Virus record (IMG/VR): IMGVR_UViG_2654587570_000013
Location: 1-35,061 of that record
Direction: 5' to 3' (one strand)
Length of the DNA: 35,061 bases
Origin: a virus
Lineage: Duplodnaviria; Heunggongvirae; Uroviricota; Caudoviricetes
This document shows positions 1 to 20,645 of this stretch, piece by piece. The position numbers and the translations under genes are program-made. Each line of letters opens with the position of its first letter. The stretch's first letter is position 1. The notes under the pieces were generated by a model. The model saw only the letters and a list, made by a program, of their open reading frames with translations, searched no databases and had not been told where the DNA came from.

Positions 1-387
1 ATGTTCAATATCATGATTCGTAAATTTGGCGAGATGACTTTCGAGAAAGCTGGTGTTGCGCGTACCGAAGAAGAAGCAATGGCCTTAGTTCTGGTAGCAC
101 TGAGATCATCACCTGAGATTATCGACGCTGAATATGTAGCCGCAGAAGGTGAGATTAAAGAGATTAAAGCAGTGGCTAAGGAATTAGGTGTTAAAGGTTT
201 CCGTAAGCTGAAACTATCCCGCGAGACTTATGTCATTGGACAGCAAGGACAATACCTAGATGAGAATAGCGCGATTGTCCTACTGAATAAGATCACCCGC
301 TATGGTTTCCAGATTGAGCAATATAAAACGTGTTTCGAATTATACGAAAAAGGTTTGCTGGATACTCTGACCATCGTTCGCGCTTAA
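1..387 (+). CDS. hypothetical protein (may be truncated at window edge)
   Basis: 128-aa ORF starting at window position 1; no motif recognised; followed by a hairpin plus T-run at 402-427. Confidence 0.4.
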   Translation: MFNIMIRKFGEMTFEKAGVARTEEEAMALVLVALRSSPEIIDAEYVAAEGEIKEIKAVAKELGVKGFRKLKLSRETYVIGQQGQYLDENSAIVLLNKITRYGFQIEQYKTCFELYEKGLLDTLTIVRA

Positions 388-961: not shown

Positions 962-998
962 GCCCCTATCGTTATAATACGCGGTAGGGGCGTTTTTG
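962..998 (+). terminator. putative rho-independent terminator
   Basis: GCCCCTA ... TAGGGGC stem followed by gttttt gttt. Confidence 0.5.
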
Positions 999-1010
999 TT
1001 TGGAAATGGT

Positions 1011-2690
1011 ATGAAAACTAAACTGTATTCGTATATTCGCTTCTCGTCTATGCGTCAGAATGATGGTTCGAGTTATGAACGACAAATCAGGATGGCGAGA
1101 GAGGTTGCGGCAAAGTATGACCTTGAACTGGTAAATGATTATCAGGATCTGGGTGTATCTGCGTTTAAGGGTGCTAACTCTAAAACAGGGGCGCTATCTC
1201 GTTTCCTTGATGCAATTGGTAGATCCGTTCCTGTTGGTAGCTGGCTATTCATCGAGAACTTGGACCGTTTATCCCGTGCCGATATTGTCAGTGCGCAGGA
1301 GTTATTCCTTTCAATAATCCGTAGGGGGATAACCATTGTTACTGGCATGGATAACAAGATCTACTCGCTGGATACTGTTACCGCTAACCCGATGGACCTG
1401 ATGTTCTCCATCCTTTTATTCATCCGTGGTAATGAGGAAAGCCAGACTAAGCGCAATCGTACTAACTCAAGCGCATTGATTAAGATTAAAGCTCATCAAG
1501 AAAATCCACAAAATCCGGCAGTGGCTATCGAGGAAGTTGGAAAGAATATGTGGTGGACTGATACCACTTCCGGTTATGTGTGTCCCGATCCGGTCTTCTT
1601 CCCTATTGTTCAGGAGGTTGTGGAATTACGCAGGAATGGACGGTCTACCGCCGAGATACTGGATCACCTTAACGCGACATATACACCACCACCAGCCGCA
1701 AGTCACAAGAGGCATTCAAACTGGTCACGAGCAATGATTGAAAGGTTGTTCCATACCCGCGCTTTGATTGGTATCAAGGAAATCTCTGTAGATGGCGTTA
1801 AGTATGAGTTAAAGGATTATTACCCTCGTGTGCTAGATGACGCTGAGTTTTATCACCTTAAGAAAAGCATTGGTGTTAGAGCATGTAACTATGGAGACAA
1901 AGAAGAAGCTAAACCGATCCCCCTGCTTAGTGGTGTTAATCTGCTGAAATGTGAACATTGCGGTTCCGCTATGGTTAAGGTGAAAGGAACTAACAAACGG
2001 CCTAACCAATATCGTTATTCATGCGATGCAATGCGCTCTAGTCGTATTGCATGTGTGCATACAAACTGGAGTTTTCGAGGTGATCAATTAGAGAAAGCTG
2101 TATTGCAATTGCTGGCTGATAAAATCTGGATTGCTGAGGATAAGGCTAATCCTGTTCCGGCTTTGAAAGTACAGATTGATGAGATATCACGCAAGATTGA
2201 TAACCTGATTACCCTTTCTGCTATGACTGGAGCAACGAAGGAGTTAGCCGACCAGATTACTACCCTCAATAGCGAGCGTGAAACACTCTATAATCAGATT
2301 AAGATGGCAGAAGAGGAAATGTATTCTGTGGACTCTCAAGGCTGGGAGAAGCTCGCAGAATTTGATTTAGAAGATGTTTATAACGAGGATCGCATTAAGG
2401 TCCGGTTTAAGATTAAGCAAGCTCTAAAACGGATCGGGTGTAGCAGGATTGACAAATACAAAAACTTGTTTGTATTGGAATACATTGATGGCAAGACCCA
2501 GAGAGTTGTAATAGAAAATTCAAGAGGACCGAGGAAAGGACAAATCTTTGTCGATTTGAAAACTATCAATGATAGGCAGATTCTGGAGAGTAACGGGCTT
2601 GTTCTGCATCCATGTTTAGACATGCTGACAGATAAAGACTGGAAGCCAGAAGAGGAAATACCAGGTCCATTACAGGAATTTGGAATTTAA
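1011..2690 (+). CDS. large serine recombinase (probable integrase)
   Basis: N-terminal resolvase-type catalytic domain with YIRFSSMRQ serine motif, a recombinase domain, a Cys-rich zinc ribbon (CEHCGS...C..C) and a C-terminal coiled coil. Start placed at MKTKL; the ORF track begins 15 nt earlier at 996. Confidence 0.85.
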   Translation: MKTKLYSYIRFSSMRQNDGSSYERQIRMAREVAAKYDLELVNDYQDLGVSAFKGANSKTGALSRFLDAIGRSVPVGSWLFIENLDRLSRADIVSAQELFLSIIRRGITIVTGMDNKIYSLDTVTANPMDLMFSILLFIRGNEESQTKRNRTNSSALIKIKAHQENPQNPAVAIEEVGKNMWWTDTTSGYVCPDPVFFPIVQEVVELRRNGRSTAEILDHLNATYTPPPAASHKRHSNWSRAMIERLFHTRALIGIKEISVDGVKYELKDYYPRVLDDAEFYHLKKSIGVRACNYGDKEEAKPIPLLSGVNLLKCEHCGSAMVKVKGTNKRPNQYRYSCDAMRSSRIACVHTNWSFRGDQLEKAVLQLLADKIWIAEDKANPVPALKVQIDEISRKIDNLITLSAMTGATKELADQITTLNSERETLYNQIKMAEEEMYSVDSQGWEKLAEFDLEDVYNEDRIKVRFKIKQALKRIGCSRIDKYKNLFVLEYIDGKTQRVVIENSRGPRKGQIFVDLKTINDRQILESNGLVLHPCLDMLTDKDWKPEEEIPGPLQEFGI

Positions 2691-6178: not shown

Positions 6179-9100
6179 TTAAGAAACAGAAATACCAGTA
6201 GCGGCTTTCTTAGTTACCATTACCGTTAGATCGCTGATATATGCACTTGGGTTATAGTTGTTAACGCCCTTACAGTAAACTTCAAAAGTCATTGTTACTG
6301 CCCCGTGTCCGGCTGGCATGTCAATAACTCCACTGTACATACAGCCAGAAGTTGCAGTGCGATCATATAGAACACCACCATTTTTCTTAACGATTAGTCG
6401 GCAAGTATCCCAATGATCGCTACTTTCGCCACGACGAACAGACCCGTTATGATGAATCGCTGGAATCACTATTTGGCGATCGAATGGATGATCATCTTCG
6501 ACCCTTACAGTGATTGCACCATCAGGCCAGTTTGGTTGGCGATGCGGGAAACTCCTACCAACCACTTTCACGAAGTCACCACGCACCTGATTAGCATCAA
6601 GCATACCCAAAATGCGGCAACTTGAATTAATCGTTACGTTGTTCATTTCGCCGGAATCAGCCACCAAATGACCACGAATATTAGCGTGTCTAAAATGACA
6701 AGTGCCATCTTTGCCGATATACCATCCATCGTTACCATTCCAGTTATAAGACTGGATATAGTTACCAATTTTAGCATTATCGATAGAGCCATCAATGATA
6801 TGACCTGTTCCGATCTGTGCGTGTTGGATGTGAGCGCCGTTAATCTGGGCTGTGCCGATCTTAGCCGTGGTGATACTAGCATCACTAATCTGGGCTGTGC
6901 CAATTGCAGCATTACGAATCATCGCATTATCAAGATAAACTTTGTTATCTTCGATGCCAAACGGACAAACTTCTGATCCGTCTTGTGGAGCTACCGCGAT
7001 TTTATCAGCCGTAAAGATGATTCTTGTCGGTTCTGCCGGATCATTGGTTGCGCTCATATGAATACCAGCCACGCGACCATCTGCATTAACTGCCAGATTA
7101 TATTTGCTGTTAATGGTTCCCTTCAAAGCATCGATTTTTACATCTGCTTCCTGATTCACACCAGCAATCTTGCCATCCATTTCTACCCGAACTTGATCAA
7201 TCTTACTTGCGCTTGCTGCCTCACTGGTAGCAATTGCTTGTTTCAGGGTAGTAGCAGATGCGCTAACTTCTTTGGTGATATCGCCTTTCAGTTCAGCTTT
7301 AACCTGATCAATCTTAGTTGCGCTGGCTTGCTCACTGGTAGCAATCAGACTCTTGAGAGTATCGGCTGAGGCTTGGACCGTCTGCCCTGTCTCGGTAGTA
7401 ATCTGTTTATGCATTGCATCAATCTTAGCATCGGCATTAGCGCCAGCTTGAGCAATAGCATCCGCGATGGTTTCATCTAAGCGATCTTGTAAACCAATCA
7501 GGTCTTCCAGTGCTTCTTTGTCCTGATCGTCCCAGCTAATGGTAGATTTCATTTGCATGAAATACGGTTCAGACCAAACAGCATCATCCATACCGAAAAT
7601 ATCATAGTGAGCACCACGGATATAATAATCACCGTCAGCCAAATCAAAGGAAGTATGACTAACGCTATTGGTAGTCACTGCCCTTGCATCGGAGAAAGTA
7701 TTATCGGTTGCATACTGGATGATTGACCCTGCATAGTCATGTTCTACGTCATCCGCCCAGCTAACAAACGCAGTATTAAAGCCACCACGCGCACTAAAAC
7801 CTTTCATCGGCTTATGTTGTGGGTTGATAGCCACTAAACGCGCTGGGGCGCTCTCTGAGTTGTTATAGCCCTTGACTGATACTTCTACCGTCAATTCACG
7901 GGAAAGGCCGTTAAACTGGTTCATATCAAGCGTATAAGTCCATGATTCAGGATCGCGGGTACGGTACTGAATAGACTTACCAGCCTTGTTAGTCACCTTG
8001 ATAATGTATGCTTCAAACAGGTCACTAAACTTGTTAGCTTCACCGTTGATCATCACATCTAATTGTTGCTGATTTTCCCATTCGATAATCAGATCATTGC
8101 CTTCGAAAGTACCAGGTGAACTACCCTGATTTTTGATTCGAATAACCGGAGTCGGCAATTCATAGGTAACAGTAGGATTCTGGTTAACCAGTTCCACCCA
8201 TTCGGAACGAGCAATAATACCGAAAGCACAAACGCGGTAATCGTAGGAACGATCTTTAGCCAGTGCATTGATATTGAAAATTTGCTGTGAAGTCTGTCCC
8301 AGCTTAATCCAGTTAGGTGATCCACTCACTTTGTAATCAATCTGGAAACCGTAGCGGTTGAAATCTTCCGGTACATCCCATGTCAAAGTTACGTTTTTAC
8401 CGTGGATTGTCTCACCAGTTGCCTTAATTCTGAAATTAGTCGGTTTCTGTACTGTCATTGAATCCGGTAAACCAGTAGGTCTATTGTCTGGATTCGCCGC
8501 ATAGTTCAGGTCAGTATAAACCTGAGAATTATATTCTGTGGCGGTGATAGTCATCATCCCAGCAATACCAGAATCAATAGAGCGATCAATTGCAGTAATA
8601 CGCCAAAGTGAATTATTCAGTTTTAATTCATCATAGGTTACGCTAATAACATCCCAAACTTCGGCAGTGAATGCGTCAGTAGTCATAAAGCTGATAACCT
8701 GAGTGATACGAGATTTATTTCGTTCTACACTCGCTAGTTTATCAATCTGGGCTTTAGACTTAACAAAACGATATTCAATATCTTTAGCGATAATTCGACC
8801 ATCTTGACGAATAGTAGCATCGTTTTCAGCATCAGCCGGATAACGTAGCATTTGCTCTGAATAGTCAATTGATGGTTCTTGATACATCGCGTTAATGGTA
8901 TTGAAATAACCATTAGTGCCACCTGTTTTCAGTGATACTTTTCCCATCATGATATTGTCTTCATTGAAGGTATGCTTAACAATATCAGGAGCATCCAGTT
9001 TCAGAGTAATACGTCCAAAGGATTCGAACATCACCCCGCCGAAAGTCTGCATAAGACTGGTCAAGTTCTCTTTAAAGCTGGCGTTCGGATCACATGCACC

Positions 9101-9925
9101 GTTTGAATGCAAATCCATCTGGCGTACTTGTTTACGTACTTTCAGGAATGAATCAACGTTGATGTTTTCAATTGGTACGGATAAGCCATATTTTTCATTT
9201 GTTAGGTAGTGGAAAATCTGGTCCACGCCGTTAGTGCTTGCCTCAATAGCATTGGTTTCAAGGTTACGGATTTTTAAGCCCATAACATCGACCGCTACCT
9301 GGCTATTTGGTTGAAGGATATCAACACCAGCAGCCAAAGATTTGTCATCACGACGTAAAACAATACACATGGTCGCAATGCCGTTACCCTGATACCGATC
9401 ATCCCAATCAGCGCCCAAATGATGTTTAGCAAGATCTAATGCAGTGTTAGGATTTTTACCCGTGCGAAACTCGACTTCTAAAACTTTGCGGTATTCGTCT
9501 TTAATGTTTCCTTTATCGAGAATGCCATCACGAATTGTCATATTCTGGCTAATGAGAACGTTTTTATTATCGATGTGCAGTGCTTTAAAGTGATCGATCT
9601 CACCTTCGGCAATAGCAAAAATTTGTACCAGCTTGTTATTTTCACGCTGTGAAATTGCTTTGTAAACGCAGATTGCACCAGTTCGGGTAGTACCGAAAAG
9701 AACGGGTAAAACTGTCTTAGGATCGTTTGATGTTCCTAGTGTCACCGCATTATCTGGGCTTTGTACTTTCGGTGTTTTTGGTGCGCCTACAGTGGAAGCG
9801 ATCAAGGTCATTGCACCAGCAGCCATACCGATAGCGACTGCGGTCATAACAGAAAATGTTGCAGCAGCAGCCATCCCAGCAGACGCACCAGCAATAACCG
9901 CGCCTACTAATATTTCAAATCCCAT
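6179..9925 (-). CDS. central tail fibre / host specificity protein (lambda J-like) with I-like hydrophobic N-terminus
   Basis: 1248 aa; C-terminus (DDHPFDRQIVIPA ... IDMPAGHGAVT ... KKAATGISVS) closely resembles the lambda J receptor-binding end as I recall it; internal fibre-shaft repeats; N-terminal Gly/Ala-rich hydrophobic segment; start overlaps the upstream stop (TAATG). Confidence 0.85.
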   Translation of the reverse strand: MGFEILVGAVIAGASAGMAAAATFSVMTAVAIGMAAGAMTLIASTVGAPKTPKVQSPDNAVTLGTSNDPKTVLPVLFGTTRTGAICVYKAISQRENNKLVQIFAIAEGEIDHFKALHIDNKNVLISQNMTIRDGILDKGNIKDEYRKVLEVEFRTGKNPNTALDLAKHHLGADWDDRYQGNGIATMCIVLRRDDKSLAAGVDILQPNSQVAVDVMGLKIRNLETNAIEASTNGVDQIFHYLTNEKYGLSVPIENINVDSFLKVRKQVRQMDLHSNGACDPNASFKENLTSLMQTFGGVMFESFGRITLKLDAPDIVKHTFNEDNIMMGKVSLKTGGTNGYFNTINAMYQEPSIDYSEQMLRYPADAENDATIRQDGRIIAKDIEYRFVKSKAQIDKLASVERNKSRITQVISFMTTDAFTAEVWDVISVTYDELKLNNSLWRITAIDRSIDSGIAGMMTITATEYNSQVYTDLNYAANPDNRPTGLPDSMTVQKPTNFRIKATGETIHGKNVTLTWDVPEDFNRYGFQIDYKVSGSPNWIKLGQTSQQIFNINALAKDRSYDYRVCAFGIIARSEWVELVNQNPTVTYELPTPVIRIKNQGSSPGTFEGNDLIIEWENQQQLDVMINGEANKFSDLFEAYIIKVTNKAGKSIQYRTRDPESWTYTLDMNQFNGLSRELTVEVSVKGYNNSESAPARLVAINPQHKPMKGFSARGGFNTAFVSWADDVEHDYAGSIIQYATDNTFSDARAVTTNSVSHTSFDLADGDYYIRGAHYDIFGMDDAVWSEPYFMQMKSTISWDDQDKEALEDLIGLQDRLDETIADAIAQAGANADAKIDAMHKQITTETGQTVQASADTLKSLIATSEQASATKIDQVKAELKGDITKEVSASATTLKQAIATSEAASASKIDQVRVEMDGKIAGVNQEADVKIDALKGTINSKYNLAVNADGRVAGIHMSATNDPAEPTRIIFTADKIAVAPQDGSEVCPFGIEDNKVYLDNAMIRNAAIGTAQISDASITTAKIGTAQINGAHIQHAQIGTGHIIDGSIDNAKIGNYIQSYNWNGNDGWYIGKDGTCHFRHANIRGHLVADSGEMNNVTINSSCRILGMLDANQVRGDFVKVVGRSFPHRQPNWPDGAITVRVEDDHPFDRQIVIPAIHHNGSVRRGESSDHWDTCRLIVKKNGGVLYDRTATSGCMYSGVIDMPAGHGAVTMTFEVYCKGVNNYNPSAYISDLTVMVTKKAATGISVS

Positions 9926-10344
9926 TATTCACCCCCGAATCTATAAACTTGTTCATAGTCAATGTCTGAAACAGGAATGGTCATCCAGATACCATCTTCT
10001 TCAACGAGGCCATAACCGGAATAATGAGGAACTACGGAATAATATTTGCGGTTTCCTAATTTGTGGGCTGTGACCAGTAAGTCGCCGTCCTGTAAATCAT
10101 CAGTGACTAATTTGAAATGTTTCTTAATTGGTTGAAGGATATTTGTGTATCCGCTTAATTCTTTGCAGATTTTCAAGCCTTCTTCTTTAGTTGAATATTT
10201 TTTATAAAGAGAATTATATAGGTCAGTACCAGCGAGAATATCGATGATCTTACATGCAATTATATTGCAATCATTCTCGCCTTGAACGAACTCCTGACCT
10301 ATTAAAGAATTGATGTAATCGGTGATAAGCCTAGTTTTTAGCAT
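9925..10344 (-). CDS. tail tip assembly protein (lambda K-like, NlpC/P60-type Cys/His motif)
   Basis: Start placed at MLKTRL, which has a GGAGGT SD; the ORF track extends to 10500 and would overlap the upstream gene by 110 nt. ENDC...H...H pattern; sits between the L-like and J-like genes. Confidence 0.55.
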   Translation of the reverse strand: MLKTRLITDYINSLIGQEFVQGENDCNIIACKIIDILAGTDLYNSLYKKYSTKEEGLKICKELSGYTNILQPIKKHFKLVTDDLQDGDLLVTAHKLGNRKYYSVVPHYSGYGLVEEDGIWMTIPVSDIDYEQVYRFGGE

Positions 10345-10390
10345 GTTGAATACCTCCATGCAGTTATTTACTAGGCTTAGGGAGAAGGGA

Positions 10391-11044
10391 TTATTTCTTC
10401 GATGAATGCCACTTGCTTTCGCTATTCCAGCGACCCGTCCTTGAGAAGAATAGATCGTTCTCGTTTCCAACATAGGAACGGTGGATACCATCGGAAGCAT
10501 GACTACGAGCGTTTTTATCTAGAACTTCCCAGATACTATTAAGCTGAAATTCTGATTCGTTTTTACACTCTTCATCTTCATGTTCGATGTTAATACCGAT
10601 GGAATCGACTACCCCACGGAAAACAGGGTAAGTAGTTTCAACCTTGCCCGTGTTGGGGTTAAGGAAAACCATCTCGATTTTCACATCAGATTTATCGAAT
10701 TGCTTGTTACGAATCAGGGTAATGTATTCTTCGCGAACGTTAGAAACAGTTACGTTGATCCCGTTGTTGTTGATCTCCTTCTCTTCGGTATTCGATGAGA
10801 TTTGAAGAAAGTCACCCGTTGCAAGATACGTAAAACCGTTATAGTCCAAATCGAAGTACCCATCTGTAAGCCGTAGAACGTCTCCTGACGCGGTTATTAC
10901 TTCGATAATGTGAAACATCGATCCAGTGGAAAAAAGCTGCGGTAGAGTCAATCTAGACACATTCTGCCCTGTCTGGTCGTTGTAGACCTCGATGAAGTCC
11001 AGATTAGTGCATAGTTTGCTGAATGATTCCTGAATAGTTGCCAT
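10391..11044 (-). CDS. minor tail protein (lambda L-like position)
   Basis: 217 aa; position between the M-like and K-like genes; start overlaps the upstream stop (TAATG). Confidence 0.5.
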   Translation of the reverse strand: MATIQESFSKLCTNLDFIEVYNDQTGQNVSRLTLPQLFSTGSMFHIIEVITASGDVLRLTDGYFDLDYNGFTYLATGDFLQISSNTEEKEINNNGINVTVSNVREEYITLIRNKQFDKSDVKIEMVFLNPNTGKVETTYPVFRGVVDSIGINIEHEDEECKNESEFQLNSIWEVLDKNARSHASDGIHRSYVGNENDLFFSRTGRWNSESKWHSSKK

Positions 11045-11604
11045 TATACATTCTCCACTAATTCAAATTTCATCTTGCCGATCTGAGCGATCTTCCAATC
11101 GATGTTTTCAGTTTTGAGAACAAATTCACCTTCTACGTTCTGATACTTGATCACCTCACCCGCTAGGACGTTCTGACGCAAGTTAGGGAAGAGTTTCATT
11201 TCGCCACCTGATTTCACATCTTCGGTGATCGTGTAGATTTTCTTGTGGTTCTCAAACTGGATGATAGTTCCCGCTTTCAGTGTTCCGGTGAAGTTGGAGA
11301 TTCTCACCTTACGCCCACCGCGAGCAGTACCAGCAGCAGCCGTTACCATCTGGCGTACATCACCTGTGTATTTTGAAAAGTAAGACAGTGGCACATTGAA
11401 AGGACGACCAAAAAGGTGACGTGCTACAAATTCTTTTACTTCGTTAATATCCTGAGCCATGAAATTCGCGGTAAATTCTGCTTCGTAAAAATGGATGCCA
11501 GTAAAGCGACGCTGGAACTTACCGGATATAGATTGCGCCTTGAAGAAAGGCTGTTTTGATTTAAGAGTAAAATCTGTGATTTTAATATTCTTGGATTTGA
11601 ACAT
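11044..11604 (-). CDS. minor tail / distal tail protein (lambda M position)
   Basis: 186 aa, immediately downstream of the tape measure gene. Confidence 0.5.
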   Translation of the reverse strand: MFKSKNIKITDFTLKSKQPFFKAQSISGKFQRRFTGIHFYEAEFTANFMAQDINEVKEFVARHLFGRPFNVPLSYFSKYTGDVRQMVTAAAGTARGGRKVRISNFTGTLKAGTIIQFENHKKIYTITEDVKSGGEMKLFPNLRQNVLAGEVIKYQNVEGEFVLKTENIDWKIAQIGKMKFELVENV

Positions 11605-11610
11605 AGAAAA

Positions 11611-11648
11611 GCCCCCATAGTTTTATGATTATTTATGACTATGGGGGC
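11611..11648 (-). terminator. intercistronic hairpin (attenuator) between tape measure and M-like gene
   Basis: GCCCCCATAG ... CTATGGGGGC 10-bp stem with flanking A/T runs. Confidence 0.4.
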
Positions 11649-11654
11649 TTTTAA

Positions 11655-14084
11655 TTACATCTTACGACGCTGTGCGTCTTCTACCGCCTGAGCAACTAAC
11701 TTAGCGTGACGTTTGATAGCATCCATGACCATCTTGTCTGAGCTATTAACGTTGCCGTTAATGTTCAAAGGCGCATTAACTTCAATCGGCTGAGAGTTAC
11801 CACCACCTGATTTTTGAGCAGCAAGGAAGTCTTTCAAATCGCCGTTAGTACGCTGATCAACTACTCGTTCACCCTTATCAAGCAACCATGTACCCTCACG
11901 CGGGATGTTATCGATACCATCATGAGCCATACCGCTAACGTTAGTAGACTTGATGTTTGCGATGTTCCCCATGTTCTGAGAAACAGCCAATGCAGCAGCA
12001 GCGATCTTTTGTCCTGTGGTGACGTTGGTCGGATCGTTCCATGCATCGGTAGCAGCCGTCCACATGTTCACCGTCGCTTGTCCGATAGAGAATGCTTTAT
12101 GAGCATTGAAAGCCATCTGCATAGCTTTAGTGTTTTCCTGCCCGAAGAGAGTCATTGCAGCAGCAAAACCGCCATACATATCATCGGCTATTGACTGGCG
12201 AGCATCAGCATATTTCTTTTCAATTGCAGCCATCCGTTTTTGATGGTTTTCATTGAGTTTTTCTAATGCTTCCATCCGTTTAGCCGGATCATTAATACCG
12301 TCAATCTTGAGTTTATCGGTCTTATAATCTTGTTCAGCATCCGATTTCTCTTTATCGATTGCATTAAATTTAGCAAACGGATTATTTGAGTCTTGATAAT
12401 CATAACCACTAGTTAATTGATTGGTTTTATAACCATCCATTCCCTGTAAAGAATTTTCAATCTGAGAATAGTTTTGCTCGGTATCGTTCACACGACGCAT
12501 ATATTCTTCGTAGGAGATAGCTTTACCATCAAGTAACCGTTTATGGCTTTCTAGCTCGTTGTCCCTGATTTGTTGCAATTGTGTTAAAGCATTCAGAGCA
12601 TCAATCGGATCAGCACCCAACATCATTTTATAAACGTTTTCAGTATTCTGATCGATTAGCGCCTGGCGTTTCGCGGCTGCGTCTTCCTGAGAGATTAAGC
12701 CCAGAGCTAACGCGTCGTTCACATCTTTTAAGCTGTTTTGCAACTGGCTATTTTGAGAAGTGATAGACGCTGCAACTTGCCCTTGCAATTTAACATCAAG
12801 TGCATTCAGTCGCTTGATTGCATCCTCGCGTGCTTTCTGTGCTTTTTCTGCGGCTTCCTTAGCCTTTTTAGCTGCCTCTTCCGCTTTCTTGCGTGCTTCT
12901 TCTTCGGCTTTCTTCTCATTACCAGACTTACCCAATGATTCTGGTCTTACTGGTTTATTTGGTATAGTCAAATCACGGTTAGGATCTGCCTTGCGGGTTA
13001 GATGTTCCCCGTTATCGACAACAATCAGAGAGCCATTTTTCTTATAAGAATCACCAAAACGTTTCTTAAATCCTTCAACATCAAAGCCAGCAGTACGAGG
13101 ATCGACACCAGCACCACGGATCGCGGCCTTTTCCCAATCTGCCAGATTATTCCAACGCTTTTCTTTATTGTACTTGTCAATAATTTTTTGAGCGTCTTTA
13201 TGGTTGGCGTTAAGAATACCGCCAGTTGCGGTCTTGCCTTCTTTATTCAGTCGATCTAATGCCCTGAATAGAGAACTCTTTTCCCAATCAATATTAAACC
13301 AGTCAAATAACCAGTTTAAACTATCAACCAGCGGACCAGAAATGGTCATACCGACACCTTTCAGGTTATTTTCCAGCTTATTGATATTTTGAGAAAATTT
13401 ATCATATTTTTTAGCGTTTTCTTCGGTGACGTTAACAGATTGATTCTGAATAGCGATCATCGCCTCTTGAGCAGTATTATATTTCTCAAGCTGGCTGGTC
13501 ATATGGCTTGAATCACTGGCTAAAGATTCCATCATGAACTTGATTTCAGCCATTGATTTTCCGGCTTTCTTCATGTCATAGAACACTTGGATCGCCGCTT
13601 TCATACCACCTTGCGGATCAGTCATGAAGTGAGCATAGTTTTCTAACTTAAGGCCAACCGATTCTAAGTCATCGGCAATACCGCCACCGTTAGCCCATGC
13701 ATCACCCATTTTATCTAAGGTGTCTTTGTTGATATCACCAAATTTTTCAACTGTTAGGCCAGTACCAGAAAATTCCTTTTCCAGTCTTTGAAGGGATTCA
13801 ATCGAGAGTCCGGTCGCCTTAGATACTTCTGAATATTGTTTAACGTATTCCGCGCCAGCTTTAGCGGCTGCAACCACTGCGGTCGCAACTAAGCCGATAC
13901 CACCAGCAGCTAAACCAGCAGAGCCAGCAATACCACGAAGAGATCCAGTCAGACCAGACAAGCCACCACCAAAATCAATATTACTTGCCTTTTCAGACAA
14001 ATCATCGAGCAGGTCAGCGGCTTCACTAGTGCTTCTCTTTAGCCCTTTATTATCCCCTTCTATTGTTACTATATGTTTTGTCAT
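11655..14084 (-). CDS. tail tape measure protein
   Basis: 809 aa; Ala/Gly-rich N-terminal hydrophobic stretch, long alpha-helical/coiled-coil body; canonical position after the chaperone pair and before the tip genes. Confidence 0.85.
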   Translation of the reverse strand: MTKHIVTIEGDNKGLKRSTSEAADLLDDLSEKASNIDFGGGLSGLTGSLRGIAGSAGLAAGGIGLVATAVVAAAKAGAEYVKQYSEVSKATGLSIESLQRLEKEFSGTGLTVEKFGDINKDTLDKMGDAWANGGGIADDLESVGLKLENYAHFMTDPQGGMKAAIQVFYDMKKAGKSMAEIKFMMESLASDSSHMTSQLEKYNTAQEAMIAIQNQSVNVTEENAKKYDKFSQNINKLENNLKGVGMTISGPLVDSLNWLFDWFNIDWEKSSLFRALDRLNKEGKTATGGILNANHKDAQKIIDKYNKEKRWNNLADWEKAAIRGAGVDPRTAGFDVEGFKKRFGDSYKKNGSLIVVDNGEHLTRKADPNRDLTIPNKPVRPESLGKSGNEKKAEEEARKKAEEAAKKAKEAAEKAQKAREDAIKRLNALDVKLQGQVAASITSQNSQLQNSLKDVNDALALGLISQEDAAAKRQALIDQNTENVYKMMLGADPIDALNALTQLQQIRDNELESHKRLLDGKAISYEEYMRRVNDTEQNYSQIENSLQGMDGYKTNQLTSGYDYQDSNNPFAKFNAIDKEKSDAEQDYKTDKLKIDGINDPAKRMEALEKLNENHQKRMAAIEKKYADARQSIADDMYGGFAAAMTLFGQENTKAMQMAFNAHKAFSIGQATVNMWTAATDAWNDPTNVTTGQKIAAAALAVSQNMGNIANIKSTNVSGMAHDGIDNIPREGTWLLDKGERVVDQRTNGDLKDFLAAQKSGGGNSQPIEVNAPLNINGNVNSSDKMVMDAIKRHAKLVAQAVEDAQRRKM

Positions 14085-14857: not shown

Positions 14858-15328
14858 TTAGACTTTCTGGAAAACAGCTTGTTTGACCGGAGCACCATCT
14901 ACTACAAAGGTGAAGGTACGGCCTACTACAGCATCCTCACCACCAGTCATGGTAGTTTTAGACAGGAAGCCGTTATAAGCGATATGTACACCAGATTTTT
15001 TCGTAGCATCGATGTAGTAAGCAATTTTAAGCTGTACGCGCTTACCGTCTTCGGTTGCTTTAATCAGTTTTTCGTGTACTTCGTTACCCGGCATGTAGTT
15101 GATCGAAAGTTCGATATCCGGTACAGACATACGACCAACCAGCTTACGGTTATACGGACCACCGAAGTTAGGAACATCGATAGTAGAACGTTCTACACCA
15201 GTTTCCGGGAAAGCCGCACATTCTGGAATTTCCAGATAGCTTTCACTGTCAAGATCGGTGTTAGTTACTTCTTCATGCAGAAACAGACCAACGAGGCCAC
15301 CAGAAAAAATATCAAATTTAGTAGTCAT
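14858..15328 (-). CDS. major tail tube protein (lambda V N-domain-like)
   Basis: 156 aa; INYMPGNEVHEKLIKATEDGKRVQLKIAY resembles the conserved lambda V segment as recalled (WMPGE...ALLAWFNEGD...YKIRF); very strong optimal-codon bias typical of an abundant structural protein; terminator hairpin downstream. Confidence 0.6.
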   Translation of the reverse strand: MTTKFDIFSGGLVGLFLHEEVTNTDLDSESYLEIPECAAFPETGVERSTIDVPNFGGPYNRKLVGRMSVPDIELSINYMPGNEVHEKLIKATEDGKRVQLKIAYYIDATKKSGVHIAYNGFLSKTTMTGGEDAVVGRTFTFVVDGAPVKQAVFQKV

Positions 15329-16327: not shown

Positions 16328-19300
16328 TTACCCTAATTTAGCTTCAATTGCAGCAAGACGTTCACGAAGAAGTTTATTTTCTTCGCTCATTTCTTGGACC
16401 GCTTTAATTAAAAGCGCGTTCACTGCGGAGTTTGAAATTGTTAAAATTTCTTCTGGGTTATCAAAACCACCAATTTTTGCGGTTTTAACAGCTTCCGGTA
16501 ATACCTCTTGTAAATCCTGTGCGATAATACCAATCTCATGACCTATAACTTCTCGGTCATTAAGAGATTTAACTTTATCGTAGGTTTTAACTTTGAGTTT
16601 ATTTACCTTATCCACCGCATTTTCTTCGTAATCTTCAACATTAATTTTCAGACGACGATCGGAACGAATATAAACATCGTTAAAGTTACCATTACCAGGA
16701 CAGTAAAAAGTACCATCATGATGGAACTCGAATACAGCTTGAGGGTGACCAGCCGCTGGCGATGCCTCCGCAGATCCAACACGAATAATTGCTTGCCCCC
16801 AATTTTGAGGAACACGACGCATACCAAAATCGACGGCAGTTGTATACCCTTGATTGGTGATTAAACTTCTTCCTTTGATAATCGGATAATAACAGTCCGG
16901 TGAAACATAGCCATGATCGACAAATATTGGCGCTTCTAAGCCCCATTGATCACCCCAACCTCCAGATTGGCTAGCAGTCCAACGTTCACCATGAACATAG
17001 AATCGAACGTTATTGACATGAGTCATTTCGACACCTTTTGGACTTAGCGCGATATCCCCCGCGTTTGTAATATTGATAGCAGCATTAGTAGCATAGCTAT
17101 AGAACGCTAATCCATTATCAGCACCACCTTTACCGATATACCAGTTGTTATTATCAGCACAAGTACCCAACAAATATATCGACGAATCGCCCGTTTCGGC
17201 ATTCATGATGATTGCGTCAGAACCACGATTAACTTTAAGTTTCCCGAAGAAGGTGTTTTTAATGGTATTATCACCCAATCGTTCAAATTCGGCTAAAAAT
17301 CCTTTTGAGTCACGAAGGCTTAAAACGTTATTTCGACCTGTATTGCTTGCCCCCCAATGGACGAGTTCCATATAGTCCATAGATTGACGAGAACCAGCTT
17401 TAAAGAAAAGATTGTCCTCAAGACGAGTGCTACCATCAATTCCAAGATGCAAACAGCGTGCGGTCGCTGTGCCACCTAGATCTAATCCACCACCAGCAAA
17501 ATCATAACTAAATGGTCTACGGCTATTCCACCCACCGAAAGAATCACCGTGATCTGTGGAAAGAATATGGAAGCTAGTTCCATCATTACGGAACATCAAA
17601 CCATAATTACCACCTTTAACAGCCAAACGAGCATTTTCAGATAATGCAACTTCGCTATTCATTACAATTTTCTGGCCTTTACCACCAGTAATATGTAATT
17701 CACCATCTTCAATCAGGTTTATCGAGTTTTGACCGTTATCATTCCACCAAATAAAATCTTTGGTTGTTCCATCACCGAAGCCAAACCAGCCATTACGAAC
17801 ATCTTGTCCAGTGCGATAATCCATGAAATTAAAATGGCTTGATTCGTTTGGTCCTCGACGAATATCAATACCAGAATTTCCACCAACACCACCATCCAAT
17901 GTTAATCTCTTGACATGTAACCCGGTTGTTGCTGTCAGCAATAATTCCTGATTTGTATCTTCGTATCCAGTAGCAAGACGATATGCGTTATCATCAACTG
18001 TCTCATGCCAGATAGTGGCAGGAGCAGAACTACGGAAGCGACGCAACATTTTCTTAGCATTTGTTTGCTGTTCGTTCAAATGCTCAATGTCATATTGGCC
18101 TTGATGGTTTCCAGCAAAATTTAACGTTCCACGGTTGCTAAAGTTATTGAACGATGAAATGTTAAGAGCATCAAAAATTTCATCTGCAACAGGTTTTTCA
18201 CCGCCCAGGTATTCAGGAGTATCCAACAGGTTTAAAGAAACACCACCGGAAGAAACTTGATATTCTGCTAAAACAAATCCTGTATGTGCACCATAGTAAG
18301 CGTAAAGATCATAATTGTCGCCATCGGTTGGAATAGCGCAAAAATGTTGTTCATAATGCCAAATAGTATAATACGCATTGAATACAACACCTTTCGGGCT
18401 ATTGTTGCCGCATCGAATCACCAATTCGATAATATTGGCTTGTCCATTCATCCCGACGTTATAACCGTTACCACCAACTAAGCGGATCTTAGCACTACGA
18501 CCGTGTTGCTGTGGCATTGTCAAAGTGCCTAGTTTAAACCAACCACCCTCGATCCCAAAATTAAGCGTCTTCTGGAACAGTCGGTCAATTTCTGCTTTCG
18601 AATATGCGCCAATTTCGGCAGGAGTAGGTTTATCACCTTCATGATACATGCGGTGAGAATATGCCAAATGACCCAATTCATCATAGCCGTATGTTCTTAC
18701 CGTATGAACCGGATTAGACCCATAAGTGAACTCAAAGCCACGAGCATGATTAACACCAGATGGATGCGGAACATGCAAGATCATTGCAATATGACCCGCC
18801 AGGTCATTCATGCGGAATGCACCAAAGTAATCAAGATTACGCGCATTTGGATCATCAAAATAGTTTGCGGTCTTAGACAGCAAATAACCATCAGTATAAG
18901 TGTTTACGTGTTTTTTGATGTACTTGCCATCAGCAGATCCATCGGCTGCATCAATACGGCTTTCTAAGCGTGCCAATTCAGAATCAGTGTAAGACTTGTT
19001 ATTGTCAACTTTGCTATGAATTGCTGTATTTTTGGCTTCAACATCACGGGTTAATGCTGCGACGTTATCCGCTGCCTCTTGCTTATTGGCTGCAATCACA
19101 CCAGTAAGGTTATTGTAGGTGTCAGTTAACTGATTTTCCGCATAGACTTTATTTGCTGCGATAGTGCGGTCAGTTTCTGTCTTAATCAGATCAACTTTGT
19201 CATTGATTGCTTTGTCATTACTTGCGATTGTCGCGTCGGTACGGGATTTAATATCATCAACTTTTTTATTGATGCGGGTATCCAGTTCCTGGGTTGCTAC

Positions 19301-19738
19301 AGCAGCCGCATTTTTATTAGCGTTGATGGTATCCGACAATTCAGCTTTAACACCAGCAAGGTCGGAAGCAGCTTTATTTTTATTGGCCTCGATTGTCGCG
19401 TCGGTTTCGCGTTTAATTACATCAACTTTATTGTTAATTTCTGCGTGATTTGCTGCGATGGTTGCATCAGTAGTTTGTTTAATTTCATCTACTTTAGCGT
19501 GAATATTGCGGTCATTTACTGCAATTGTGCTATCCAGTTCTTGTTTGTTAGCATCAACTTTAGATTCTAGTGCCGCGTGAGTTTCAGGAGAAACAGAGAT
19601 TTGAACTACTTCATGATCTCGGTCTTTGGTAAAAATAACATGGTCTTTAAGGTTGATTGCTACCTCACCGACCTGTAATTGTTCCGGCGTTGGTTTTTTG
19701 CCAGAAACATTTGTTCGTTTAAATTGGATCGACTGCAT
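16328..19738 (-). CDS. tail fibre/tailspike with C-terminal intramolecular chaperone (peptidase S74-type) domain
   Basis: 1136 aa; N-terminal array of roughly 22-aa shaft repeats (KVDxIKxxTDATIxAN); C-terminal ~110 aa has the S-DxRxK autoproteolysis signature (YIRS/DRRLK) and a terminal coiled coil, as in T5 L-shaped fibre and K1F endosialidase chaperone domains. Confidence 0.85.
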   Translation of the reverse strand: MQSIQFKRTNVSGKKPTPEQLQVGEVAINLKDHVIFTKDRDHEVVQISVSPETHAALESKVDANKQELDSTIAVNDRNIHAKVDEIKQTTDATIAANHAEINNKVDVIKRETDATIEANKNKAASDLAGVKAELSDTINANKNAAAVATQELDTRINKKVDDIKSRTDATIASNDKAINDKVDLIKTETDRTIAANKVYAENQLTDTYNNLTGVIAANKQEAADNVAALTRDVEAKNTAIHSKVDNNKSYTDSELARLESRIDAADGSADGKYIKKHVNTYTDGYLLSKTANYFDDPNARNLDYFGAFRMNDLAGHIAMILHVPHPSGVNHARGFEFTYGSNPVHTVRTYGYDELGHLAYSHRMYHEGDKPTPAEIGAYSKAEIDRLFQKTLNFGIEGGWFKLGTLTMPQQHGRSAKIRLVGGNGYNVGMNGQANIIELVIRCGNNSPKGVVFNAYYTIWHYEQHFCAIPTDGDNYDLYAYYGAHTGFVLAEYQVSSGGVSLNLLDTPEYLGGEKPVADEIFDALNISSFNNFSNRGTLNFAGNHQGQYDIEHLNEQQTNAKKMLRRFRSSAPATIWHETVDDNAYRLATGYEDTNQELLLTATTGLHVKRLTLDGGVGGNSGIDIRRGPNESSHFNFMDYRTGQDVRNGWFGFGDGTTKDFIWWNDNGQNSINLIEDGELHITGGKGQKIVMNSEVALSENARLAVKGGNYGLMFRNDGTSFHILSTDHGDSFGGWNSRRPFSYDFAGGGLDLGGTATARCLHLGIDGSTRLEDNLFFKAGSRQSMDYMELVHWGASNTGRNNVLSLRDSKGFLAEFERLGDNTIKNTFFGKLKVNRGSDAIIMNAETGDSSIYLLGTCADNNNWYIGKGGADNGLAFYSYATNAAINITNAGDIALSPKGVEMTHVNNVRFYVHGERWTASQSGGWGDQWGLEAPIFVDHGYVSPDCYYPIIKGRSLITNQGYTTAVDFGMRRVPQNWGQAIIRVGSAEASPAAGHPQAVFEFHHDGTFYCPGNGNFNDVYIRSDRRLKINVEDYEENAVDKVNKLKVKTYDKVKSLNDREVIGHEIGIIAQDLQEVLPEAVKTAKIGGFDNPEEILTISNSAVNALLIKAVQEMSEENKLLRERLAAIEAKLG

Positions 19739-19811: not shown

Positions 19812-20645
19812 TCAGTATTCCCCGAAGTCGATCCGGTCATGGATAGAAACGGCTTCAATCTCGGCTGGTGTCGGTTTTTCTTCTGTGGAATACACTTTCA
19901 CCCATCCAGAATTACCGTCTTTCTGGACTGTGCGAACTCGTAAACGTGGTGCGCCGGAAGCGGTGCAAGTTAATTGCCATCCACCATCTTCATTAGGTTG
20001 AACGTGAATTAGTGAAGTATCAGCACTAAATGGATTAGATACGCTCGATCCCTGATAAGTTACGAAACGGTTTCCGGCTAATGCTTCGCTATCAATCGGA
20101 CCTATGAATGGGCTAACGCCTGAACCTACGCCATAATCCCCTTGTCGCAGAATTTTTCCCTCGGTCGCGATACCCCTTGCAAGAATCCCGCCATCTGGTT
20201 CAAGTTTAAATTCCAGTGTTACAGCTTTGTTATCTGCGCCACGGGTTTTATGTGATGTGACGTAAGCATCGAATATACAAAAGTACCCTGTGTTAGCAGC
20301 ACTATAGCCAGAGTTCACAACATAGAACATACGGAAGCGTAAAGGTGTTTTATCCTCTACCGCTTTCATCAACATTGCTTGATGTTCGTCATCCAGAACA
20401 CGGTTTAACGTGAGTGTTGTCGGTTCCAGTTTACGATAACCAGCAAGTTTCCCCGTAGCGTCCTGGTCATACTCTTCTAACGTCTGGATCTCTGTGGATT
20501 CGGTTATCGTCGGAAATGCTGCGATGTTCTCGATAGGACTAAAGCTAGGATCGAAAAAGTCCGGCTGGTTATCCACCATAGTAGACACGGAGACTTCAAC
20601 ATGCGACCCCGTGAAAATGTCTAAGTTATCTTGTGTAATATTCAT
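19812..20645 (-). CDS. tail tube-fold protein with C-terminal extra domain (lambda V-like major tail protein or tail terminator)
   Basis: 277 aa; TLTLNRVLDDEHQAMLMKAVEDKTPLRFRMF resembles the same V-like segment; C-terminal ~100 aa beta-rich domain carrying a KPTPAEI motif also present in the fibre. Confidence 0.5.
   Translation of the reverse strand: MNITQDNLDIFTGSHVEVSVSTMVDNQPDFFDPSFSPIENIAAFPTITESTEIQTLEEYDQDATGKLAGYRKLEPTTLTLNRVLDDEHQAMLMKAVEDKTPLRFRMFYVVNSGYSAANTGYFCIFDAYVTSHKTRGADNKAVTLEFKLEPDGGILARGIATEGKILRQGDYGVGSGVSPFIGPIDSEALAGNRFVTYQGSSVSNPFSADTSLIHVQPNEDGGWQLTCTASGAPRLRVRTVQKDGNSGWVKVYSTEEKPTPAEIEAVSIHDRIDFGEY

What the first reader, a model, noticed from the sequence alone, without database searches (positions are those of the whole stretch)
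6179..9925. J-like central fibre carries a hydrophobic Gly/Ala-rich N-terminus resembling the end of lambda tail assembly protein I
The first ~50 aa (GFEILVGAVIAGASAGMAAAATFSVMTAVAIGMAAGAMTLIASTVGAPKTP) are hydrophobic, which is unusual for a J N-terminus. In lambda-like phages a segment like this ends the separate I protein. Here the K-like stop overlaps the J start (TAATG) and there is no separate I gene, which suggests an I-J fusion.
Basis: inference. Interest (0 to 1): 0.4.

Follow-up and report, generated by a model that had tools for sequence, protein, structure and literature searches.

The report
Tail-tip J protein with built-in plug
The central tail-fibre protein of this E. coli prophage starts with a greasy segment that phage lambda encodes at the end of a separate protein (I). 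This is real homology, but the joined layout is already described and is the normal one for this protein's family, so the finding is ordinary.

Summary
The 1248-aa J-like gene lies on the minus strand at 6179-9925. It begins with about 47 uncharged Gly/Ala-rich hydrophobic residues. Its ATG overlaps the stop of the upstream gene (TAATG). There is no separate I gene and no room for one.

Residues 1-95 are homologous to the C-terminal half of lambda gpI, the part seen in the lambda tail tip (two hydrophobic helices, plug, beta strands):
- BLASTP E 5e-6
- hhalign probability 93%, E 4e-7
- family profile against PDB chain 8iyk_I, E 4e-6

From about residue 96 the chain continues as a J/pb3-type hub. 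T5 pb3 residues 260-313 span the junction in one chain (E 7.5e-9).

Only gpI's C-terminal half is present. The ubiquitin-like domain of I and the JAB domain of K are absent from the window.

The layout is not unusual:
- 23 of 26 remote homologues among 1.84 billion representatives carry the module at their own N-terminus.
- More than 100 E. coli, Salmonella and Providencia orthologues keep it.
- I-J fusions were noted in 2006.
- Solved structures (Avs-1 gp23, the RcGTA and R4C megatron proteins, T5 pb3) show in-chain tube-closing elements.

Likely role: a lumenal plug plus outer-membrane insertion helices. Verdict: a new member of a known kind, low to moderate interest.

The parts
6179..9925 (-). 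J-like central tail fibre / tail-tip hub protein, 1248 aa, with a gpI-C-type module at its N-terminus
   Evidence: ORF found. Pfam Ig_GpJ_C E 1.6e-34 and Phage_Tail_Tip E 4.5e-17. PHROG tail-fibre families. Orthologues are annotated 'phage tail tip protein'.
9785..9925 (-). Residues 1-47: uncharged Gly/Ala-rich hydrophobic segment. It is long enough for two helices and corresponds to helices H1/H2 of lambda gpI (about residues 101-156).
   Evidence: Hydropathy and composition. The profile alignment to 8iyk_I covers residues 117-221. phrog_32 (gpI family) profile positions 100-200 match. The hydrophobic character is kept in 23 of 24 remote homologues.
9713..9784 (-). Residues 48-71: polar linker APKTPKVQSPDN...DPKT, equivalent to the gpI 'plug' region (gpI 156-190)
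   Evidence: BLASTP and hhalign. The gpI plug is placed at residues 159-175 in PMC11101478.
9641..9712 (-). Residues 72-95: conserved VLPVLFG-x2-R-x-G strand region (P74, G78 and G83 nearly invariant), equivalent to gpI 191-212 and T5 pb3 from about residue 260
7526..9640 (-). Residues 96-800: hub domains (starting LVQIFAIAEGEID) followed by FNIII-type domains. This is the J/pb3-type body.
   Evidence: T5 pb3 260-313 spans the junction, E 7.5e-9. Weak hhalign match to gpJ 21-77, E 0.024. Phage-tail_3 and fn3 score below their cut-offs. Top Foldseek hits of a low-confidence model are pb3, T1 and lambda J chains.
6725..7525 (-). Residues 801-1067: fibre shaft (coiled segment plus Phage_Tail_Tip/DUF1983)
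   Evidence: Pfam PF09327 over residues 931-1092. PDB hits to T1, F2-pyocin and other fibres.
6179..6724 (-). Residues 1068-1248 plus stop: lambda-J-type C-terminal receptor-binding domain
   Evidence: 41% identity to lambda J 952-1131, E 2e-34. PF12421. PDB 9wca_J E 3.6e-44. This region is swapped among close orthologues.
9925..10344 (-). 139-aa DUF6950 protein in the gene position of lambda K / RcGTA g14. Its stop overlaps the J start.
   Evidence: PF22262 E 5.6e-12 and phrog_2134. No similarity to lambda K. The same gene order is seen in metagenome locus L003.
10391..11044 (-). 217-aa baseplate hub protein (gpL / RcGTA g13 position)
   Evidence: PF09931 26.5 bits, cut-off 26. phrog_2048 E 7e-28. 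RefSeq name 'DUF2163 domain-containing protein'.
11044..11604 (-). 186-aa distal tail protein
   Evidence: phrog_1302 E 1.4e-16.
11655..14084 (-). 809-aa tape measure protein. By analogy with lambda and T5, its C-terminus would rest on the plug.
   Evidence: Assigned from its position, size and coiled/Gly-rich sequence. No family hit passed threshold. The contact with the plug is inferred from PMC10721106 and PMC10038345.

Best explanation
The first ~95 residues of this J-like protein are a built-in copy of the structural, C-terminal half of lambda gpI.

**Anatomy**
- Residues 1-47 are a hydrophobic Gly/Ala-rich stretch long enough for two helices.
- Residues 48-71 are a polar 'plug' linker.
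- Residues 72-95 are a conserved strand region (VLPVLFG..R.G).
- From about residue 96 the chain runs straight into the hub domains of the same polypeptide.

**Proposed mechanism, inferred from the lambda, T5, RcGTA/R4C and Avs-1 structures**
- Three copies of the module sit in the lumen of the tail-tip cone under the C-terminus of the tape measure protein.
- There they close the tube, with the strands stitched into the hub beta sheets.
- When the C-terminal lambda-J-type receptor-binding domain binds its outer-membrane receptor, the cone opens and the plug comes apart.
- The hydrophobic helices are then released towards the outer membrane and insert into it, ahead of the tape measure protein and the DNA.

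**Comparison with lambda**
- Lambda encodes the same element as a separate protein carrying an extra ubiquitin-like domain, next to a JAB+NlpC protein (K).
- This phage has neither extra domain. It has the unsplit arrangement that is normal for its family.

**Shown versus inferred**
- Shown here: the homology, the domain order, and the conservation.
- Inferred: the location in the virion and the membrane insertion.
For: **Homology to gpI's C-terminal half**
- BLASTP E 5e-6.
- tblastn without low-complexity masking: gpI 121-223 against window 9853-9605, E 1e-4 for the C-terminal query.
- phrog_32 (I family) profile positions 100-200 match at E 2e-3, and at 5e-5 for other family members.
- Profile against PDB 8iyk_I residues 117-221, E 3.9e-6.
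- hhalign probability 92.7%, E 4e-7.

**Continuity into the hub**
- T5 pb3 260-313 aligns across window residues 72-121, E 7.5e-9 with the profile.
- gpJ 21-77 maps to window 96-162, directly after the gpI-like part. This match is weak, E 0.024.
- Foldseek's top hits are pb3, T1 and lambda J chains.

**Conservation**
- The module lies at the N-terminus in 23 of 26 hits among 1.84 billion representatives.
- All 23 aligned N-termini match phrog_5616, and 22 match phrog_31, the J family.
- 23 of 24 keep a hydrophobic stretch.
- Orthologues keep it.

**Role, from published structures**
- gpI 101-223 forms H1/H2, the plug and beta strands in the lambda tip. H1/H2 disappear from the lumen in the open state (PMC11101478; PMC10721106).
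- The N-terminus of Avs-1 gp23 forms a gpI-like tripod (PMC13612043).
- The megatron N-terminal iris/penetration domain closes the tube (PMC7296036, PMC10276861).
- The T5 plug refolds and anchors in the membrane (PMC10038345).
Against: - No structure of this protein exists. The AlphaFold2 model of residues 1-620 has mean pLDDT 44, and residues 1-72 are unmodelled.
- Part of the sequence signal in the hydrophobic stretch could be compositional. The firm homology covers residues 48-96.
- Pfam and NCBIfam have no model covering the module.
- Direct sequence similarity to the RcGTA megatron N-terminus was not tested.
- Membrane insertion by gpI H1/H2 is itself still a hypothesis in the lambda papers.
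- Whether the segment stays attached to J in the virion is unknown.
Confidence: 0.72

Rival explanations
1. The module is made as part of J but is cut off during tail assembly, for example by the translationally coupled DUF6950 protein if that is a papain-like peptidase. The virion would then hold a free gpI-like peptide plus a J that starts near residue 96, as in lambda.
For: - Lambda has the two pieces as separate chains.
- Iyer et al. proposed that the peptidase domains of K process I (PMC1779556).
- The DUF6950 gene overlaps the J start. Its product has a G-x-x-D-C motif and a later His, as read directly from the sequence.
Against: - In T5 pb3 and Avs-1 gp23 the equivalent element stays in-chain.
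- No cleavage motif is conserved around residue 96 in alignment A1.
- DUF6950 shows no detectable similarity to lambda K or to any peptidase, and its model was unusable.
Confidence: 0.13
2. The hydrophobic N-terminus is an unrelated membrane anchor or signal-like segment, and its resemblance to gpI is only compositional. It might, for example, target J to the inner membrane during assembly.
For: - The first 47 residues are low-complexity.
- BLAST with masking aligns only from residue 48.
- The closest Pfam hit for the first 57 residues is noise (DUF3482, E 0.48).
Against: - The adjoining residues 48-96 are significantly homologous to gpI 158-212, in the same order and at the same spacing after the hydrophobic part.
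- There is no basic n-region, the hydrophobic run is 45 residues, and a Pro follows the only Ala-X-Ala-like site. It is therefore not a Sec signal peptide (read directly from the sequence).
- Tail proteins assemble in the cytoplasm (established knowledge).
Confidence: 0.05
3. The apparent fusion is an artefact. A sequencing frameshift or a lost stop codon has joined a short I gene to J in this one assembly.
For: Error-prone long-read metagenome contigs do split or join these genes.
Against: - More than 100 independent assemblies from E. coli, Salmonella and Providencia have the same continuous ORF and the same start.
- 56 complete E. coli genomes carry the locus.
- Remote homologues share the layout.
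Confidence: 0.01

Closest known systems
Lambda tail tip assembly protein I (gpI; 'TAPI' of Iyer et al. 2006), C-terminal half, residues about 101-223 (PDB 8IYK, 8XCG, 9E7M)
   Same: Both have a Gly/Ala-rich hydrophobic stretch for two helices, a polar plug linker (APK..TP..Q..DN) and the VLPVL(F/Y)G..R.G strand region, in the same order. The homology is significant. Both lie immediately upstream of the J hub sequence.
   Different: Here the element is the N-terminus of J rather than a separate 223-aa protein. The N-terminal ubiquitin-like domain (PF06805) is missing. The neighbouring gene lacks the JAB and recognisable NlpC/P60 domains.
T5 / DT57C baseplate hub protein pb3 (PDB 7ZHJ, 8HQZ)
   Same: The plug-then-hub order lies within one chain. 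pb3 260-313 aligns across the I-like/J-like junction, E 7.5e-9. pb3 chains are the best Foldseek matches of the (poor) model. The plug closes the tube and anchors in the outer membrane (PMC10038345).
   Different: pb3 also contains the hdI part, which here is a separate 217-aa hub protein. The pb3 plug is a positively charged beta-hairpin with a short LFGL tip, not a 47-residue hydrophobic helical stretch. T5 places its receptor-binding protein on a separate pb4/pb5 fibre.
Megatron proteins of RcGTA (g15) and roseophage R4C, with an N-terminal iris/penetration domain
   Same: Both have a separate hub protein of the PF09931 family plus a small protein in the K position. Both then have a long multidomain protein whose first ~45 residues are predicted membrane-active helices that close the tail channel (PMC7296036, PMC10276861). 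The gene order is the same.
   Different: Sequence similarity of the N-termini was not tested here. The hub here has only 2 Cys, so it lacks the four-Cys Fe-S site. The C-terminal half here is a lambda-J-type fibre and receptor-binding domain rather than a fibre-binding domain.
Aeromonas siphophage Avs-1 gp23 (PMC13612043), and the 'TAPI fused to TAPJ' prophage proteins noted in PMC1779556
   Same: These are J-like proteins whose own N-terminal region replaces gpI as the lumenal tripod or plug. The I-J fusion was described as a domain architecture in 2006.
   Different: The fusions of Iyer et al. are described as involving the TAPI protein as a whole, which includes its ubiquitin-like domain, whereas here only TAPI-C is present. 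Sequence relatedness to Avs-1 gp23 was not tested.

Membership tests
Lambda gpI / TAPI family (tail tip assembly protein I) | N-terminal ubiquitin-like beta-grasp domain (Pfam PF06805 Lambda_tail_I) | tested here: not met
   Lambda gpI hits PF06805 at 1e-28. The window's residues 1-130 give no hit even at E<=10. tblastn with gpI 1-100 against the whole window gives a best E of 8.3.
Lambda gpI / TAPI family (tail tip assembly protein I) | Gly/Ala-rich hydrophobic region followed by the conserved C-terminal domain (TAPI-C: plug plus strands) | tested here: met
Lambda gpI / TAPI family (tail tip assembly protein I) | Separate gene between K and J, next to a K protein with JAB + NlpC/P60 domains | tested here: not met
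   The genes are contiguous and leave no space. The upstream protein is DUF6950 only. There is no similarity to gpK.
Lambda-type central tail fibre J (tip attachment protein) | C-terminal receptor-binding domain PF12421 and tail-tip fibre domain PF09327 | tested here: met
   PF12421 119 bits and PF09327 62.6 bits, both above their cut-offs. 41% identity to lambda J 952-1131.
Lambda-type central tail fibre J (tip attachment protein) | N-terminal hub domains (HDII, HDIII, HDIV) followed by FNIII domains | tested here: inconclusive
   PF13550 scores 19.7 bits (cut-off 23) and fn3 17.2 bits (cut-off 25). There is no BLAST similarity to the lambda J N-terminus. hhalign gives E 0.024. Foldseek's top hits are pb3, T1 and lambda J chains, but from a model with pLDDT 44 and TM-scores of 0.20 or lower.
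Lambda-type central tail fibre J (tip attachment protein) | Full-length equivalence to lambda J (NCBIfam NF049904 lambda_TipJ) | tested here: not met
   194 bits against a cut-off of 1950. Only the C-terminal 180 residues match.
Split baseplate hub of the RcGTA/R4C type (hub + megatron) / T5 pb3-type hub with an in-chain tube-closing element | Separate hub protein of the PF09931 (phiJL001 gp84 / RcGTA g13) family upstream | tested here: met
   26.5 bits against a cut-off of 26, so only just above threshold. phrog_2048 E 7e-28. RefSeq name DUF2163.
Split baseplate hub of the RcGTA/R4C type (hub + megatron) / T5 pb3-type hub with an in-chain tube-closing element | Tube-closing element contiguous with the hub domains in one chain | tested here: met
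   At sequence level, pb3 260-313 spans the junction. The module is at the N-terminus in 23 of 26 remote homologues. Closure of the tube itself cannot be tested here.
Split baseplate hub of the RcGTA/R4C type (hub + megatron) / T5 pb3-type hub with an in-chain tube-closing element | Sequence or structure homology of the N-terminal helices to the megatron iris/penetration domain | not tested
   No RcGTA g15 or R4C chain appeared in the PDB sequence searches. The model of residues 1-72 is unusable.
Split baseplate hub of the RcGTA/R4C type (hub + megatron) / T5 pb3-type hub with an in-chain tube-closing element | Four-Cys iron-sulfur site in the hub protein | tested here: not met
   The 217-aa hub has only two cysteines, read directly from the sequence.

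The most novel reading that the evidence does not exclude
This unsplit arrangement, with no ubiquitin-like and no JAB domain, may be the ancestral state of the siphophage tail-tip plug. Lambda I would then have arisen by fission of the J N-terminus plus capture of a ubiquitin-like domain. The JAB domain of K would have been co-acquired to handle (chaperone or cleave) the now free hydrophobic peptide. If so, this E. coli prophage is a natural comparison partner for lambda. It could be used to test what the long-unexplained I-Ubl/K-JAB pair is for. A related reading is that the coupled DUF6950 protein does the chaperone or processing job here.
Probability: 0.25. Interest if true: 0.45.

Novelty: new member of a known kind. 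Interest (0 to 1): 0.25.

Why it matters
This case gives sequence-level support for the idea, drawn from cryo-EM work, that lambda gpL + gpI + the N-terminal part of gpJ together equal one T5-type baseplate hub protein. It does so in a lambda-like context: an E. coli prophage whose J carries a lambda-type receptor-binding domain.

In practice it helps annotation. Proteins now named 'phage tail tip protein' or 'DUF1983 protein' begin with a gpI-C-type plug/membrane-insertion module that no Pfam or NCBIfam model covers.

It also notes that the I ubiquitin-like domain and the K JAB domain are absent together in this phage, which suggests how their function might be tested. It does not reveal a new mechanism.

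Tried and rejected
- **Close phage relatives.** Megablast of the tail-tip region against 50,697 phage records found nothing. tblastn found one phage record, DCP80.
- **Family libraries.** Pfam and NCBIfam scans of residues 1-130 gave no usable hit.
- **Word-indexed protein search with residues 1-150.** This returned only close partial sequences.
- **The same search with profile A1.** It returned only short proteins, which turned out to be contig-end or frameshift fragments of long J genes, not free I-like proteins.
- **AlphaFold2 of residues 1-620.** With a 39-row alignment the mean pLDDT was 44. The Foldseek ranking was used only as weak support.
- **AlphaFold2 of the DUF6950 protein alone.** Mean pLDDT was 38, so no fold search was run. 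PDB sequence searches with the DUF6950 and hub proteins found nothing. The 'K-like peptidase' label therefore remains untested.
- **Rejected readings.** A Sec signal peptide was rejected (no basic n-region, 45-residue hydrophobic core). A sequencing artefact was rejected (orthologue set). A whole-I fusion was rejected (no ubiquitin-like domain).


Full report
**1. What is in the sequence**

The finding's coordinates hold one ORF on the minus strand, 6179-9925, of 1248 aa. It is the last gene of a tightly packed tail-tip module, all on the minus strand:
- tape measure protein, 11655-14084;
- distal tail protein, 11044-11604 (phrog_1302);
- hub protein, 10391-11044 (PF09931, phrog_2048; RefSeq name 'DUF2163');
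- a 139-aa DUF6950 protein, 9925-10344;
- the J-like protein.

The DUF6950 stop and the J start overlap as TAATG. Within the run from the distal tail protein to J, the largest intergenic gap is 46 bp, so there is no room for an I gene.

The quoted N-terminal sequence is exact. Residues 1-49 contain one charged residue. Kyte-Doolittle 19-residue means reach 1.88. Lambda gpJ never exceeds 1.00, and lambda gpI exceeds 1.6 only in windows starting at residues 101-138, spanning about 101-156.

**2. It is not an artefact, and it is conserved**

The window is a temperate siphophage. It encodes a large serine recombinase, terminase, portal, head and tail genes. The prophage is present in 56 of 5426 complete E. 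coli genomes.

More than 100 orthologues from E. coli, Salmonella and Providencia (80-100% identical) keep the same start and the same hydrophobic segment. In more distant full-length relatives, residues 1-47 are 36-42% identical and residues 48-95 are 39-64% identical. That is comparable to the hub domains.

**3. Homology to lambda I**

Several independent tests agree:
- BLASTP aligns window residues 48-107 with gpI 156-223 at 35% identity, E 5e-6.
- Without low-complexity masking, tblastn aligns gpI 121-223 with residues 25-107, E 1e-4.
- PHROG scans of residues 1-130 hit the gpI family phrog_32 at profile positions 100-200 of 203. They also hit phrog_4554, another short tail-protein family, at its C-terminal end.
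- A profile built from 23 diverse N-termini (A1) hits PDB gpI (8iyk_I) over residues 117-221, E 3.9e-6.
- hhalign gives probability 92.7%, E 4e-7, for window 48-96 against gpI 158-212.

The resemblance is therefore homology, not just composition. It covers the part of gpI that the cryo-EM papers place in the lambda tip: hydrophobic helices H1/H2, a plug at residues 159-175, and beta strands that augment gpJ sheets (PMC11101478; PMC10721106).

The other half of gpI, the ubiquitin-like domain PF06805, is absent from the protein and from the whole window. So is the JAB domain of K. The DUF6950 protein has no detectable similarity to K.

**4. The junction**

- The hhalign match to gpI ends at residue 96. 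A weak match to gpJ 21-77 (E 0.024) begins at residue 96.
- T5 pb3 residues 260-313 align across window residues 72-121 (…VLPVLFG… to …AEGEIDHF…). The E-value is 7.5e-9 with the profile.
- In pb3 the plug hairpin (tip residues 230-238) lies just before this stretch (PMC10038345).

So what lambda splits between the end of I and the start of J is one continuous chain both here and in T5. This is the sequence-level counterpart of the proposal that gpL + gpI + the N-terminal part of gpJ correspond to pb3 (PMC10721106).

A low-confidence AlphaFold2 model of residues 1-620 (pLDDT 44) ranks pb3, T1 tip and lambda J chains first in Foldseek. I count that only as weak support.

**5. How common is the layout?**

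- A full HMMER scan of 1.84 billion representative proteins with residues 1-130 gave 26 hits at E<=1e-3. In 23 of them the match starts within the first 20 residues of the target. Complete targets are 650-2324 aa long.
- The aligned hits share this pattern: M, then a hydrophobic Gly/Ala-rich stretch, then P-x-x-P, a polar linker, (I/L)PV(I/V)YG-x-R-x-G, and …EGEI(D/E).
- 23 of 24 have a KD19 value above 1.6 upstream of the YG motif.
- All 23 aligned N-termini match the N-terminus of phrog_5616. Twenty-two match phrog_31, the 'central tail fiber J' family, at profile positions about 182-316.
- The short hits from the word-indexed search are fragments or frameshift-split J genes. Two of the three contigs looked up show the same gene order, tape measure or Dit, hub, DUF6950-position gene, then J, and none of the three has a Lambda_tail_I hit. 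The third contig was too fragmented to read.

**6. Prior knowledge**

- Iyer, Burroughs and Aravind (2006) defined TAPI-C. They wrote that TAPI is fused to TAPJ in some prophages (PMC1779556).
- The Avs-1 structure shows the N-terminal region of its J-like gp23 forming a gpI-like lumenal tripod (PMC13612043).
- The RcGTA and R4C megatron proteins begin with an 'iris/penetration' domain of predicted membrane-active helices that closes the channel.
- T5 closes its tube with an in-chain plug that later anchors in the outer membrane.

**7. Mechanism (inferred)**

Three N-terminal modules probably form the lumenal plug under the tape-measure C-terminus, with the strand region stitched into the hub sheets. 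Receptor binding by the lambda-type receptor-binding domain (41% identical to lambda J) would open the cone and free the hydrophobic helices to enter the outer membrane. The module would remain tethered to J unless it is cleaved, a rival I put at about 0.13. The TAATG coupling to DUF6950 might help to handle the hydrophobic N-terminus, but this is speculation.

**8. Verdict**

The 'I-J fusion' reading is partly supported. The homology to I is real, but only the C-terminal half of I is present. The direction of evolution (fusion or fission) is unknown, and the architecture is standard and already described. This is a new member of a known kind, of low to moderate interest (0.25). The most novel reading still open is that lambda's I arose by fission from this unsplit state, with the Ubl and JAB domains acquired together. 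I give that a probability of about 0.25.

Noticed in passing
window 16328-19738 (-), flanked by 14858-15328 (-) and 19812-20645 (-): A 1136-aa protein whose C-terminal half matches T4 gp37-type long-tail-fibre distal subunits (phrog_1699, E 1.7e-129). It sits between two genes that both match the same major-tail-protein family (phrog_158). This is an unusual position for a fibre gene in a siphophage tail module.
   Followed up: no
window 6179-6724 (-), residues 1068-1248 of J: The lambda-J-type receptor-binding domain is swapped among otherwise 80-99% identical orthologues. Identity in this region ranges from 13% to 98%, while the hub stays at 73-94%. This is mosaic host-range exchange. The best solved match is 'A8 gpJ 713' (9wca_J, E 3.6e-44).
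   Followed up: partly
window 10391-11044 (-): The hub protein (gpL / RcGTA g13 position, PF09931) has only two cysteines. It therefore cannot form the four-Cys iron-sulfur cluster seen in lambda gpL and in the RcGTA and R4C hub proteins (sequence; literature).
   Followed up: no
window 9925-10344 (-): The DUF6950 protein occupies the K/g14 position. It has a G-x-x-D-C motif (GENDCNII) and a later His, reminiscent of NlpC/P60 peptidases. It shows no detectable sequence similarity to lambda K or to any solved structure, and no paper in the library mentions DUF6950. The longer ORF start at 10500 overlaps the hub gene and is unlikely to be used.
   Followed up: partly
window 9300-11700 compared with E. 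coli genomes NZ_CP065607 and NZ_CP038394: In some prophage relatives the match is split into two pieces by an insertion of roughly 0.85 kb, annotated 'NUMOD3 domain-containing DNA-binding protein'. This looks like a homing-endonuclease-type gene inserted within the tail-tip module.
   Followed up: no
L002 (Escherichia phage DCP80, PQ671644.1) 8917-12675: DCP80 is the only record in the phage collection that matched residues 1-200 of this J (38% identity). The record may be misclassified or chimeric.
   Followed up: no
window 21546-23558 (-) and 996-2690 (+): A 670-aa major head protein matches both capsid families and a 'major head and protease' family (phrog_617, phrog_4523). A 564-aa large serine recombinase marks the element as a temperate phage or prophage.
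   Followed up: no
L003 7001-10265; L004; L005: In error-prone long-read metagenome contigs the J gene is split by frameshifts into a short N-terminal piece and a long remainder. These pieces appear in protein databases as free 150-250-aa 'I-like' proteins and could mislead surveys of split versus fused layouts.
   Followed up: yes
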